A stretch of 64,000 nucleotides of DNA from a virus (Duplodnaviria > Caudoviricetes). Every line of letters begins with the position of its first letter. Within the stretch, counting starts at the first letter, position 1. The stretch lies in IMG/VR virus record IMGVR_UViG_3300025892_000008; one strand, 5' to 3'. Below the pieces are notes generated by a model, which saw nothing but the letters and a program-made list of their open reading frames with translations, was not told the origin of the DNA and did no database searches. The position numbers were made by a program, and so were the translations under genes. Shown here piece after piece: positions 1 through 2,907 of the stretch.

Positions 1-374
1 ACACATCTCATTGCTTTTTTGGTTGCGCTGTTAACAACACGTTCAACTGATGTTGGACGTTCTTCGGCAAGTTTTCCTATATCACGGACCTCACCTTGTC
101 CGTTTATCTTATTAAAACGTTTGTCAAGTGCTTTGAATTCTGTTTGCAATACTCTGTTCTTATCTTCAAGTTCTTTGTTAGCAGACAATATAGCAGTAAA
201 ATCTTTTTTCTGTTGTTCAATTACAGACTGTTGTTCAGACACACTGTCTAATAGTTTAGCATTATTTGCTTCACTAGTTGCAAGATCAGACTTTAATGTT
301 TTTACATACAAAAAGCCGCCGCCTGCACCTGCTAACATAATTACAATCATCGCTATTTTAATTGATCCAAACAT
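1..374 (-). CDS. Putative i-spanin/Rz-like membrane-anchored coiled-coil protein (runs off the window edge; missing from the ORF track)
   Basis: Manual translation MFGSIKIAMIVIMLAGAGGGFLYVKTLKSDLATSEANNAKLLDSVSEQQSVIEQQKKDF... shows an N-terminal TM helix then a coiled coil. Its ATG overlaps the ACP stop (TAATG). It lies downstream of the endolysin. Confidence 0.55.
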   Translation of the reverse strand, partial: MFGSIKIAMIVIMLAGAGGGFLYVKTLKSDLATSEANNAKLLDSVSEQQSVIEQQKKDFTAILSANKELEDKNRVLQTEFKALDKRFNKINGQGEVRDIGKLAEERPTSVERVVNSATKKAMRC

Positions 375-589
375 TATGCTTCTACCAGTTTAATAAAGTC
401 GCCAACAGTTTGAACGTTGGCTTCGTCTTCTTCTGAAATTGTTACACCTGTTGCTTTTTGAATAGCAACTGCTAACTCGATAATATCAAATTCATCAGCA
501 CCTAAATCGTCCATTAAATTTGCTTCTGGTACAACTTTAGATTCATCAATACCTAAGTGTTCTGCTACTGCTTTAATTACTTTTTTCAT
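374..589 (-). CDS. Acyl carrier protein homologue with Glu in place of the phosphopantetheine Ser
   Basis: Acidic 71-aa protein with the ACP pattern LGIDESKV.PEANLMDDLGADEFDIIELAVAIQK...ISEEDEANVQTVGD; canonical DLGADSLD reads DLGADEFD. Confidence 0.85.
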   Translation of the reverse strand: MKKVIKAVAEHLGIDESKVVPEANLMDDLGADEFDIIELAVAIQKATGVTISEEDEANVQTVGDFIKLVEA

Positions 590-716
590 CTACTTTTTCC
601 TCTTGGTAACGTGGATATGTACAAACAATTATTTCTATTGGTTTGTTGTCTCCATCCATAAATGTTTCGATTAATCTGCCTTCGTGTGCTCTTCCACAAT
701 TTTGACAGGTAAGCAT
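573..716 (-). CDS. Small CxxC-containing hypothetical protein, 47 aa (missing from the ORF track)
   Basis: MLTCQNCGRAHEGRLIETFMDGDNKPIEIIVCTYPRYQEEKVDEKSN; its ATG overlaps the endolysin stop (TAATG) and it fills the gap to the ACP gene. Confidence 0.6.
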   Translation of the reverse strand: MLTCQNCGRAHEGRLIETFMDGDNKPIEIIVCTYPRYQEEKVDEKSN

Positions 717-1582
717 TAGTCTAACAGTTTTTCCAATGTTGCAGGACCAGCAATGCCATCAGCAACTAAGCCATTTGACATTTGCCATTGCTTCAATGCA
801 CGTTCAGTGCCAGGACCAAAGTCACCGTCAGCGCCAATACCTAATGCTTCTTGCATCATCTTAACACCTTCGCCTTTACATCCTTTACGTAGTACACCGA
901 TATCATCAACATCAATGTGTCCTTCGTCTGTACCTAAATCGTCTGCATCCATACCTAATACTTTAAGTGCGTGTGCATAACGCTTTTGTCTATCTTCTAA
1001 ACCAATGTTACCGCCATTGATCTTTTTAGTCATTTTAACTACATTGTCTGTGTCAGCAATATTGTTAAGTTTAGTTGTGTCCCAGAACCAACAAGCACTT
1101 TCAATTGCACCTGCAGGAGTTGCAACATAATCTGATGCTTCCTCTGCTGTCTTACCAATACTTTCGCCAAACTTTGTATAGTTGTAACGACCAGTAAGTT
1201 GTTTTAATCCACGTCCACGGAATCTCCATCCGTCACCTTCGTTAACATTACCCATCTTGTATTTGCGATATGTGTCATTGTATACACGGTTAGCAATCAT
1301 TTCTGGGTTACGAGCATACTCTGCTGCATCTGCTTTTGGAGCATTACCAAAGTAACGACCAAACACTGCACGTAATGCCTTTTCACTGTAGTTTAAATTT
1401 TCTTCTAATTTTTTAAAGCCTGCACTTTCGTGAGCGCACTGACTTAGGAAGTGTGCTACTCTACGTTCTGTTGTGATACCATACTTAGGTAATAGTTCAC
1501 ATAGCGCATCATACCAGTTATCAGGATTATCAGAAATAATCTCTCCTAGGTGCGCTTTAGTAAATTCAAATTCAAAACTCAT
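716..1582 (-). CDS. Endolysin: glycoside hydrolase family 19 domain plus C-terminal peptidoglycan-binding domain
   Basis: GH19 motifs AHFLSQCAHESAGF and FRGRGLKQLTGRYNY; C-terminal PG_binding_1-like LRKG..G.GVK.MQEALG...DGDFGPGT...LVADGIAGPATL. Confidence 0.92.
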   Translation of the reverse strand: MSFEFEFTKAHLGEIISDNPDNWYDALCELLPKYGITTERRVAHFLSQCAHESAGFKKLEENLNYSEKALRAVFGRYFGNAPKADAAEYARNPEMIANRVYNDTYRKYKMGNVNEGDGWRFRGRGLKQLTGRYNYTKFGESIGKTAEEASDYVATPAGAIESACWFWDTTKLNNIADTDNVVKMTKKINGGNIGLEDRQKRYAHALKVLGMDADDLGTDEGHIDVDDIGVLRKGCKGEGVKMMQEALGIGADGDFGPGTERALKQWQMSNGLVADGIAGPATLEKLLD

Positions 1583-2352
1583 TTTGTATCCTTTAATTTT
1601 AGAACCATTGTTTTTGATTCATTAGTAAACAAAAATTTGTCGCCGTATTTTTGTATGTTATAGTCTCCCATAACTTTAGTTAACCAGAAAATTTCTGCTG
1701 TAGCATTATCATCTACTTGAATATCTTCCATACCTTCAATTAGTTTATCATCACCTTCTTGAACAAGTTCAAACTCAACTTTGATATCAAATGGTTTAAT
1801 TATTGTTATTTTGTTATTTTCTAAAACTAAATCATCCATTAGTGTCTTAGTAAAGAAACTTTTAACTTCGTCAGTTCTAAATTTAGTCATAACTTGTTCG
1901 TACATTTTCTTACTTGACGGAATCTTTCTCAAATTTTCTGTAGTAACAGACATTTTATCTTTATTTTTATAATACTTATATTCCCAATCTAAAATATTTG
2001 TTAACTTGCTTATACCAAAAACCATTTCCATAATGTTTTCTGCTAGTTTGTTATTTCTTTCTACTTCAACAAAAATAGAATATTCTCCATCTTTGTTTTC
2101 TCCTGCACTAACATCTGCATCTAGTACAAAAGGATATCCTTTCTCAATAAACTCCATAAAGTCTTTTGCAGGATTTCTATCTTTTGCTTGGAAAGTTACA
2201 ACACAAACATCTGGGTCTTCACCCATTTTTGATTTATGTGTATCTACTTCCATCATAGGATAAAACATATCCTCTAAATCGTGTTTTCTCAAACCTTCTT
2301 CTAAAACTTTATTATTGTGCTTCATCTGGTGTTCCTTGTGCAGTTTGGTCAA
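1579..2352 (-). CDS. Phage hypothetical protein (start may be 2325)
   Basis: Long ORF coupled to the endolysin; no recognisable motif. Confidence 0.7.
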   Translation of the reverse strand: MTKLHKEHQMKHNNKVLEEGLRKHDLEDMFYPMMEVDTHKSKMGEDPDVCVVTFQAKDRNPAKDFMEFIEKGYPFVLDADVSAGENKDGEYSIFVEVERNNKLAENIMEMVFGISKLTNILDWEYKYYKNKDKMSVTTENLRKIPSSKKMYEQVMTKFRTDEVKSFFTKTLMDDLVLENNKITIIKPFDIKVEFELVQEGDDKLIEGMEDIQVDDNATAEIFWLTKVMGDYNIQKYGDKFLFTNESKTMVLKLKDTK

Positions 2353-2833
2353 CTGGTTCTGGATTTTGTGCTTGTACTGAATTTGATAAAATGTCTTGTA
2401 CTTTATTCTTATCTAAATTACTATAACCCCTGTCAACATTTTTCATAAGTGTTTTAGGCATTTTAATTTTTACCAACCATACTTGATTGTAATCAACTTT
2501 ACCTTTTCTTGTGCCTGGACGTATATCATCTGGTGTTTTAATTCTTCTTACATTAGCCATAGCAGTTTCAGCATAAGAAACTTTACAACCATACTCCATT
2601 AATCTCTTACCGCCTGCAGGCTCTGGCATCTTATCATTAGGCCACATAAATGTACACGTAATATAATACCTGTCTTCTTTAGGACCTTCTGCTAATTCAC
2701 CATCGATCCAGTTGTCGAATACGTAAAGGTCAAGTTCATCAACAACACGCTCAAAGTCCTTTAATAGGTTTAAACTGTTGTTAGAACCGTAAATTTGTTC
2801 TATATTTGATATAATGTCTTTAATGCTGGCCAT
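2312..2833 (-). CDS. Phage hypothetical protein
   Basis: Start moved to MASIKD (2833) because GGAG lies at 2840-2843 and TAAATA at 2849-2854. Confidence 0.7.
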   Translation of the reverse strand: MASIKDIISNIEQIYGSNNSLNLLKDFERVVDELDLYVFDNWIDGELAEGPKEDRYYITCTFMWPNDKMPEPAGGKRLMEYGCKVSYAETAMANVRRIKTPDDIRPGTRKGKVDYNQVWLVKIKMPKTLMKNVDRGYSNLDKNKVQDILSNSVQAQNPEPVDQTAQGTPDEAQ

Positions 2834-2907
2834 GTTAGTCTCCACAAGTATTTATCGTTTTCTAAATGTTATACTATTATTTTCTTTTTACGAACTTAAA
2901 TAATAGT

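What the first reader, a model, noticed from the sequence alone, without database searches (positions are those of the whole stretch)
374..589. Acyl carrier protein that cannot be phosphopantetheinylated (GADSLD to GADEFD)
Seen: a clear ACP sequence whose invariant Ser codon is GAA (Glu) in an otherwise intact, translationally coupled gene. Established: that Ser carries the 4'-phosphopantetheine arm, and ACP also binds non-FAS partners such as SpoT, MukB and IscS. Inference: a decoy that keeps the acidic helix II surface and titrates ACP-binding host proteins (lipid synthesis, stringent response or ACP-dependent defence factors).
Basis: partly seen in the sequence, partly recalled or inferred. 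Interest (0 to 1): 0.7.

Follow-up and report, generated by a model that had tools for sequence, protein, structure and literature searches.

The report
Serine-less acyl carrier protein cassette
A giant ocean phage carries a well-folded copy of the bacterial fatty-acid carrier protein that has lost the serine needed to hold its cofactor; it is kept under selection yet comes and goes as a single-gene insert in the cell-bursting operon, so it most likely acts by binding another protein, whose identity is still unknown.

Summary
Window 374..589 (-) encodes a 71-aa acyl carrier protein (ACP) homologue. Codon 33 (GAA, 493..491) puts Glu where every carrier ACP has the phosphopantetheine Ser. This is not an error or a private mutation: no family member found has Ser. 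They carry Glu or Asp through all four acidic codons; one side branch has Pro or Gly. Median dN/dS is 0.24. AlphaFold gives a canonical four-helix ACP (pLDDT 96.8).

New here:
- The gene always lies in the lysis cassette: endolysin, a zinc-ribbon mini-protein, the pseudo-ACP, i-spanin, o-spanin.
- It is accessory. Only 22 of the 80 closest spanin loci have it.
- At least 6 gains or losses are needed on the spanin tree.
- One near-identical pair differs by a clean 215-nt indel bounded by ATAATG.
- A 268-kb relative has no ACP domain at all.

So it is not a lysis component. It is most likely an unloadable ACP mimic that binds a protein. The decoy idea is only partly supported: the first half of the docking helix is kept, its later acidic patch is lost, and no partner was identified.

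The scan has reported this family beside spanins on other DNA (e1-5341407), and serine-less ACPs in several other phage groups.

The parts
374..589 (-). Pseudo-ACP gene: 71 aa, pI 4.2, net charge about -10. Four-helix ACP fold with Glu at the phosphopantetheine position.
491..493 (-). Codon 33, GAA (Glu), aligned to the invariant Ser of the DSL motif. It is the first residue of helix II in the model.
   Evidence: Site codons in relatives: GAA 10, GAG 5, GAC 8, GAT 3.
372..376 (-). TAATG: the pseudo-ACP stop overlaps the i-spanin start (translational coupling). In relatives the same ATAATG junction bounds the cassette on both sides.
3..374 (-). i-spanin: the first 124 aa, after which the gene runs off the window. 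N-terminal membrane helix followed by coiled coil. In relatives it is 161 aa and is followed by an overlapping lipobox o-spanin.
   Evidence: phrog_739 at E 5.8e-12
573..716 (-). 47-aa zinc-ribbon-like mini-protein with C4, C7, H11 and C32 invariant. No known family. It is present in many relatives, with or without the pseudo-ACP.
716..1582 (-). Endolysin, 288 aa: GH19-like catalytic domain plus PG_binding_1. The endolysin type varies among near-identical phages.
1579..2845 (-). Two upstream genes of the same gap-free gene string (257 aa, phrog_13138; 177 aa, phrog_12928; both named 'virion structural protein' by PHROGs). They are conserved upstream of the cassette in all clades.

Best explanation
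This is a carrier-dead member of the ACP family, a pseudo-ACP. A group of uncultured marine T4-like giant phages carries it as a single-gene accessory cassette inside the late lysis operon.

Shown:
- It has the ACP fold.
- It has no acceptor serine, and the site is held acidic.
- It is under purifying selection.
- It is translationally coupled to the spanin genes.
- It has been repeatedly and cleanly gained or lost among close relatives, so lysis does not need it.

Inferred:
- It works purely by protein binding, through the conserved N-terminal half of helix II (D32, E/D33, D35, E38) together with the acidic helix III.
- The carboxylate at position 33 stands in for the phosphodiester of holo-ACP.
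- The protein therefore behaves as an unloadable ACP look-alike. It occupies a host protein that recognises ACP without needing the arm, either blocking it or borrowing it late in infection.
- The target is unknown.
For: - Fold and homology: PF00550 at 40.3 bits; PDB ACPs to E 3e-15; AF2 pLDDT 96.8 with helices at 2-12, 33-47, 53-57 and 62-70; Foldseek top hits are all ACPs with TM about 0.9.
- No Ser anywhere in the family: 61 of 61 aligned proteins have E or D, and so do all 38 genes in fetched loci. An exhaustive HMMER search adds only branch members with Gly (P0067) or Pro (P0107) before ordinary Ser ACPs begin at about 50% identity.
- Selection: median pairwise dN/dS is 0.24, and all four acidic codons are used at the site.
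- Docking face: D28, L29, D32, F34, D35 and E38 are invariant, matching the canonical consensus except for E33 and F34.
- Accessory cassette: 20 of 80 closest i-spanin loci have it upstream, 2 have it downstream and 58 lack it. At least 6 changes are needed on the spanin tree. There is a clean 215-nt indel between ATAATG repeats in flanks that are 93.6% identical. PF00550 is found in 5 of 5 positive records and in 0 of 6 negative ones, including a 267.8-kb contig.
- Precedents for arm-independent ACP function: apo-AcpP stimulates MukB as well as holo-AcpP does (PMC8602292); serine-less Plasmodium mACP still binds Isd11-Nfs1 (PMC8547962).
Against: - No partner was found, and the host is unknown.
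- The later acidic patch of helix II (E. coli E47 and E49) is neutralised and pocket residues are changed. The surface is therefore not a faithful copy of AcpP and may have been retuned to a non-ACP partner.
- One side branch has Pro or Gly at the site, so an acidic residue is not an absolute requirement.
- The constant position in the lysis cassette could instead point to a phage-internal role.
- Nearest Ser-bearing ACPs are only about 50% identical, so it is not a recent copy of a host gene.
Confidence: 0.5

Rival explanations
1. Phage-internal lysis regulator or adaptor. The pseudo-ACP binds a phage lysis protein (holin or antiholin, endolysin, the zinc-ribbon mini-protein, or a small membrane protein next to the spanins) and tunes the timing or efficiency of lysis.
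For: It is found only inside the lysis gene cluster, in three arrangements. These are between the mini-protein and the i-spanin, directly after the 254-263-aa protein and before the i-spanin, and after the o-spanin among small membrane proteins. It is translationally coupled to the i-spanin.
Against: Most close relatives with near-identical spanins lack it. The mini-protein occurs in 41 loci without the pseudo-ACP directly upstream of the i-spanin. The endolysin type varies freely beside identical pseudo-ACPs. It has no signal peptide, whereas the spanins' working parts are periplasmic.
Confidence: 0.2
2. Anti-defence decoy. This small, very acidic accessory protein neutralises a host defence or DNA-handling protein, for example an SMC- or MukB-like complex, and not a lipid enzyme.
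For: It shows patchy presence and absence among near-identical phages. It is small with pI 4.2. MukB binds apo-ACP (PMC8602292), and phages are known to target MukBEF (title of PMC7617805, listed; I did not read the paper).
Against: It lies in a late operon with the lysis genes, whereas counter-defence genes are usually early. There was no PADLOC match. MukBEF is mainly a gammaproteobacterial system (my own knowledge), and the host is unknown.
Confidence: 0.15
3. It is still a carrier, through a non-canonical attachment. The load would sit on the Glu/Asp carboxylate (in the manner of the amino-group carrier LysW) or on another Ser, placed there by a phage enzyme.
For: The strict E/D at the site in most members. 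According to earlier scan notes that I did not check, the genome is rich in tailoring enzymes.
Against: Pro and Gly variants exist. No partner enzyme travels with the cassette, since the indel removes only this gene. F34 and F65 replace smaller pocket residues. No phosphopantetheinyl transferase was found in the records that could be searched.
Confidence: 0.04
4. A decaying relic of a once functional phage ACP, with no present function.
For: It is dispensable in most relatives.
Against: It is intact in every copy. dN/dS is 0.24 across a dS of up to about 2. Twenty-one columns are at least 90% conserved, and the site is held acidic through synonymous and E/D changes.
Confidence: 0.04

Closest known systems
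Bacterial type II fatty-acid-synthase acyl carrier protein AcpP (Pfam PF00550; TIGR00517), especially its apo form
   Same: Length, four-helix fold and acidity. The loop and helix II start DDLGAD-x-x-D..E. Acidic helix III and the TVGD motif before helix IV. From my own knowledge (Keating, Carey and Cronan 1995, not checked here): apo-ACP is itself a potent inhibitor of E. coli growth, through glycerol-3-phosphate acyltransferase.
   Different: Glu or Asp in place of Ser36, and Phe in place of Leu37. The equivalents of E47 and E49 are neutral, and F50 is Thr. It scores below every NCBIfam ACP cut-off. There are no fab or pls neighbours. It is phage-borne, sits in a lysis operon and is accessory.
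Plasmodium falciparum mitochondrial ACP (Falekun et al. 2021, eLife, PMC8547962)
   Same: A naturally serine-less ACP that is retained for a protein-binding role, according to that paper's title and abstract.
   Different: That protein has a defined partner (Isd11-Nfs1). No LYR-type partner is evident here. An IscU-like gene lies nearby in some relatives but does not track the cassette.
Serine-less ACP homologues noted by this scan in other phages (Vi01-like, marine N4-like, jumbo phages; e1-178934, e1-3258369, e1-5408914) and this same family beside spanins (e1-5341407)
   Same: Ser is replaced, mostly by Glu or Asp; the proteins are conserved; the partner is unknown.
   Different: Those are AI notes that I did not re-test, except for the spanin linkage. 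Here the gene is additionally shown to be a gain/loss cassette. The cultured-phage ACPs that my search did reach (Vibrio and Erythrobacter phages) keep Ser.
Chromosomal serine-less ACPs of some Clostridia MAGs at the plsX-acp-rnc locus
   Same: The motif DLGADEFD with Glu at the Ser site, in a small ACP (L128, L127).
   Different: These are cellular and sit in the housekeeping acpP position. They are only 36-43% identical. Their function is also unknown.

Membership tests
Acyl carrier protein superfamily (Pfam PF00550 PP-binding) | Sequence match above the Pfam gathering score | tested here: met
   40.3 bits against a cut-off of 20.8, E 3.8e-10
Acyl carrier protein superfamily (Pfam PF00550 PP-binding) | Four-helix ACP fold | tested here: met
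   AF2 pLDDT 96.8. Foldseek to PDB gives ACPs with TM 0.81-0.95 and rmsd about 1 A.
Functional carrier ACP (AcpP equivalog, TIGR00517 / NF002151) | Conserved Ser of the D-S-L motif that receives 4'-phosphopantetheine | tested here: not met
   E33 is aligned to the Ser. No Ser in 61 proteins or 38 locus genes; the residues seen are E, D, P and G.
Functional carrier ACP (AcpP equivalog, TIGR00517 / NF002151) | Score above the curated equivalog cut-off | tested here: not met
   TIGR00517 scores 54.7 against 70.45. The best model, NF002148, scores 66.7 against 71.
Functional carrier ACP (AcpP equivalog, TIGR00517 / NF002151) | Complete acidic recognition helix II and hydrophobic acyl pocket | tested here: inconclusive
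   The equivalents of D35, D38 and E41 are invariant. E47 is Q, E49 is A, F50 is T, L37 is F and A68 is F. Pocket geometry was not measured.
Functional carrier ACP (AcpP equivalog, TIGR00517 / NF002151) | Association with a phosphopantetheinyl transferase or with fab/pls genes | tested here: not met
   Neighbours are lysis, chaperone and replication genes. No PF01648 match in four partial positive contigs or in a 267.8-kb relative. The window's own whole genome is not held.
Functional carrier ACP (AcpP equivalog, TIGR00517 / NF002151) | Modified by AcpS or Sfp and carries acyl groups | not testable with these tools
   This needs an in vitro labelling assay or intact-mass spectrometry.
Phage lysis cassette component (endolysin / holin / spanin set) | Located within the lysis gene cluster and co-translated with it | tested here: met
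   The order is endolysin, mini-protein, pseudo-ACP, i-spanin, o-spanin, with overlapping stops and starts.
Phage lysis cassette component (endolysin / holin / spanin set) | Present wherever the cassette is present (required for lysis) | tested here: not met
   58 of the 80 closest spanin loci lack it, and there is a clean single-gene indel.
Serine-less ACP acting with a LYR-motif partner (Plasmodium mACP type) | A LYR-family or Fe-S assembly partner that co-occurs with it | tested here: inconclusive
   An IscU-like gene is present near 5 of 20 positive and 4 of 50 negative loci, so there is no clear link. LYR proteins were not searched for.

The most novel reading that the evidence does not exclude
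The acidic residue at position 33 imitates the phosphodiester of holo-ACP. This makes an 'always holo-looking but empty' ACP that jams host enzymes which take acyl-ACP for envelope lipids (lipid A and phospholipid acyltransferases) at the moment the lysis genes are expressed. It would be an optional envelope-weakening booster that phage lineages gain and lose as a cassette. More broadly, serine-less ACPs would be a general class of binding-only proteins, with counterparts in phages and in Clostridia.
Probability: 0.12. Interest if true: 0.75.

Novelty: new variant of a known kind. Interest (0 to 1): 0.55.

Why it matters
ACP is one of the most connected proteins in bacteria, and its functions that do not need the cofactor arm (MukB, and others still debated) are hard to separate from lipid synthesis. 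This phage protein is a natural ACP stripped of its carrier function yet kept by selection. It also comes with natural near-isogenic phage pairs that differ only by this gene. Together these give a direct handle for finding which ACP-binding host protein a phage benefits from occupying. The finding also corrects the database label 'acyl carrier protein' for this family. My six full-text literature searches did not find a paper that describes serine-less phage ACPs.

Tried and rejected
- Complex prediction of the pseudo-ACP with the upstream zinc-ribbon mini-protein plus Zn gave no verdict (score 0.00). This is evidence neither for nor against binding.
- Co-occurrence with the nearby IscU-like gene showed no clear link.
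- The T4 late-promoter word TATAAATA occurs twice in the window, neither time near the operon. Sigma-70-like sites were no more frequent than in shuffles. Timing is therefore inferred only from operon membership.
- RNA evidence: contigs from RNA libraries of two studies cover the gene without differences. Contigs cannot exclude carried-over DNA and cannot give strand or level.
- Host clue: no family member was found in 185,579 species genomes. The contexts of the nearest Ser-bearing ACPs were uninformative.
- Cultured-phage ACPs reached by tblastn (Vibrio and Erythrobacter phages) keep Ser, so they are not this class.
- No ACP-like ORF was found in the last 47 kb of Salmonella phage Vi01. The rest of that genome was not scanned.
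- The window's whole genome is not held, and the 267.7-kb ENA contig of a near-identical phage cannot be searched. The absence of a transferase or a second ACP in this very genome is therefore unverified.
- An apparent spanin deletion in L122 is only a run of N in a scaffold.

Full report
**1. The observation**

On the minus strand, 374..589 is an intact 71-aa ORF. It starts at ATG 589..587, with AGAGG 9 nt upstream, and stops at TAA 376..374. It matches Pfam PP-binding at 40.3 bits against a cut-off of 20.8. It matches PHROG 5934, 'acyl carrier protein', and solved bacterial ACPs down to E 3.3e-15. In those alignments its DLGADEFD pairs with DLGADSLD. Glu33 (GAA, plus-strand ttc at 491..493) therefore occupies the position of the serine that carries 4'-phosphopantetheine. 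The stop overlaps the next gene's start (TAATG), and the start overlaps the preceding 47-aa ORF by 17 nt.

**2. Not an error, not a private mutation**

- A word-index search returned 60 homologues at 43-100% identity from JGI, ENA, Tara and Logan assemblies, on contigs up to 272 kb. All 61 aligned sequences have Glu (52) or Asp (9) at the site, and none has Ser.
- An exhaustive HMMER search of 1.84 billion representatives found only a handful of family clusters. One member has Gly (P0067, 63% identical) and one has Pro (P0107). Ordinary Ser-bearing ACPs begin at about 50% identity.
- The 38 gene copies in the window and fetched loci are all intact and all have E or D.
- Among 26 distinct DNA sequences the site uses GAA 10, GAG 5, GAC 8 and GAT 3. 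Median pairwise dN/dS is 0.24.
- Contigs assembled from RNA libraries of two studies cover the gene without differences. This confirms the sequence independently but does not prove transcription.

**3. The protein**

- AlphaFold2 with the family alignment gives pLDDT 96.8, with helices at 2-12, 33-47, 53-57 and 62-70. E33 is the first residue of helix II, as Ser36 is in E. coli AcpP.
- Foldseek finds only ACPs, with TM about 0.9 and rmsd about 1 A.
- The protein has pI 4.2 and a net charge of about -10.
- I compared the family with 81 Ser-bearing ACPs. D28, L29, G30, A31, D32, D35 and E38 match the canonical consensus; the last three correspond to E. coli D35, D38 and E41.
- The family-specific differences are S to E/D, L37 to F (invariant), M44 to V, E47 to Q, E49 to A, F50 to T and A68 to F.
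- So the first half of the docking helix and the acidic helix III are kept. The later acidic patch and several pocket-lining residues are not.
- All NCBIfam ACP models score below their curated cut-offs; TIGR00517 scores 54.7 against 70.45.
- The protein is a true ACP homologue that fails the defining features of a carrier.

**4. Context**

The gene sits in a gap-free string on the minus strand:
- a 177-aa protein and a 257-aa protein (PHROGs 12928 and 13138, named virion structural);
- an endolysin (GH19-like plus PG_binding_1);
- a 47-aa mini-protein;
- the pseudo-ACP;
- a membrane-anchored coiled-coil protein (phrog_739, Rz-like).

In relatives the last of these is 161 aa. It is followed by an overlapping 120-149-aa protein with a clear lipobox (phrog_812). 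Together they form an i-spanin/o-spanin pair.

The mini-protein has invariant C4, C7, H11 and C32 and matches no known family.

The wider synteny is clamp loader, ferredoxin, PhoH, the cassette, then DnaJ, peptide deformylase and ClpB. It is conserved in two clades at 43-50% pseudo-ACP identity. The second clade has no endolysin or mini-protein at this spot.

In a third small branch, which has Pro or Gly at the site, the pseudo-ACP lies after the o-spanin among small membrane proteins.

**5. The gene is an accessory cassette**

- A search with the i-spanin found 380 relatives in IMG/VR, of which the 80 best (66-100% identical) were kept.
- Only 20 of the 80 have the pseudo-ACP upstream, 2 have it downstream, and 58 have none on either strand.
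- 41 loci keep the mini-protein directly coupled to the i-spanin without a pseudo-ACP between them. 19 loci have neither.
- On a spanin DNA tree the trait needs at least 6 changes, and well-supported branches alone force 6. Recombination could account for some of these.
- L075 and L096 are 93.6% identical in the flanks and differ by a clean 215-nt indel. The indel runs from one ATAATG (mini-protein stop, pseudo-ACP start) to the next (pseudo-ACP stop, i-spanin start). Two other pairs show 208- and 210-nt indels.
- A PF00550 search finds exactly one match in 5 of 5 positive records. It finds none in 6 negative records, including a 267.8-kb contig.
- Lysis therefore does not require this gene. 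Lineages that have it keep it under selection.

**6. Mechanism**

The shown facts leave a binding-only role. My best reading, at confidence 0.5, is an unloadable ACP mimic. It would use the conserved D32, E/D33, D35 and E38 face, with the carboxylate at 33 standing in for the phosphodiester of holo-ACP. It would occupy a host protein that recognises ACP independently of the arm.

Literature read here limits the candidates:
- MukB is stimulated equally by apo- and holo-AcpP (PMC8602292).
- IscS loses binding with S36T, and also with D35N and D38N (PMC13343975).
- ACP S36T is non-functional for growth (PMC3340395).
- Plasmodium mACP is a precedent for a serine-less ACP kept for protein binding (PMC8547962).
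- From my own knowledge: apo-ACP is toxic to E. coli, and membrane-derived oligosaccharide synthesis accepts apo-ACP.

The rivals are a phage-internal lysis regulator (0.2), an anti-defence decoy (0.15), a non-canonical carrier (0.04) and a relic (0.04).

**7. What failed**

- The single complex-prediction job (pseudo-ACP with the mini-protein) gave no verdict.
- The IscU-like neighbour does not track the cassette.
- No promoter could be assigned.
- No host clue emerged.
- The window's whole genome is not held.

**8. Relation to earlier notes of this scan**

The same family beside spanins was already reported on another genome (e1-5341407). I confirm the spanin linkage but not 'always': most close relatives lack the gene. 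Serine-less ACPs were also noted in Vi01-like, N4-like and jumbo phages. I did not re-test those.

**9. Verdict**

This is a new variant of a known kind: a serine-less, accessory phage ACP. It is not described in the literature I could search. Interest 0.55.

Noticed in passing
L128:4980-5213 (+); also L127:403-684 and L125:4995-5216: Clostridia and Eubacteriales MAGs carry a small ACP in the housekeeping position (trmFO, plsX, ACP, rnc). In it the phosphopantetheine Ser is Glu (DLGADEFD) in L128 and L127, or Ala in L125. This hints at an arm-independent cellular role for ACP in bacteria that may lack fatty-acid synthesis. I did not check for a second, normal ACP in these genomes.
   Followed up: partly
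L124:4179-5222 and L133:4179-5132: Verrucomicrobiaceae MAGs encode proteins of about 345 aa with N-terminal membrane helices and a C-terminal ACP-like domain reading DLGADDFD (Asp at the Ser site). The exhaustive search also returned serine-less ACP domains with signal peptides or membrane anchors (P0122, P0176, P0203) and a protein with three such domains (P0071).
   Followed up: no
window 573-716 (-); alignment A2: A 38-65-aa mini-protein with invariant C4, C7, H11 and C32 (probably a zinc knuckle) and a DGD motif. It sits between the endolysin and the i-spanin in most relatives, with or without the pseudo-ACP. It has no Pfam, PHROG, NCBIfam or PADLOC match and may be an undescribed lysis-cassette component.
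   Followed up: partly
window 716-1582 (-) compared with L007:3365-3877: Phages with 100% identical pseudo-ACP and i-spanin carry different endolysins: a 288-aa GH19-like enzyme with PG_binding_1 here, and a 170-aa GH108 enzyme with PG_binding_3 in L007. Other relatives have 154-, 175- or about 290-aa forms. The endolysin is swapped as a module.
   Followed up: partly
L071:3347-4580 and L083, same coordinates: In the branch with Pro at the site, the pseudo-ACP lies after the o-spanin. It is flanked by three small proteins with predicted membrane helices (92, 133 and 125 aa). Similar proteins of 93-99 and about 143 aa follow the spanins in other relatives and could include the missing holin.
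   Followed up: no
window 534-568: In all four RNA runs laid, short high-depth contigs with 2-3 mismatches pile up on this 35-nt stretch, which encodes residues 8-19 of the pseudo-ACP. They continue into unlike sequence, so they probably come from other organisms' ACP genes and not from this phage.
   Followed up: no
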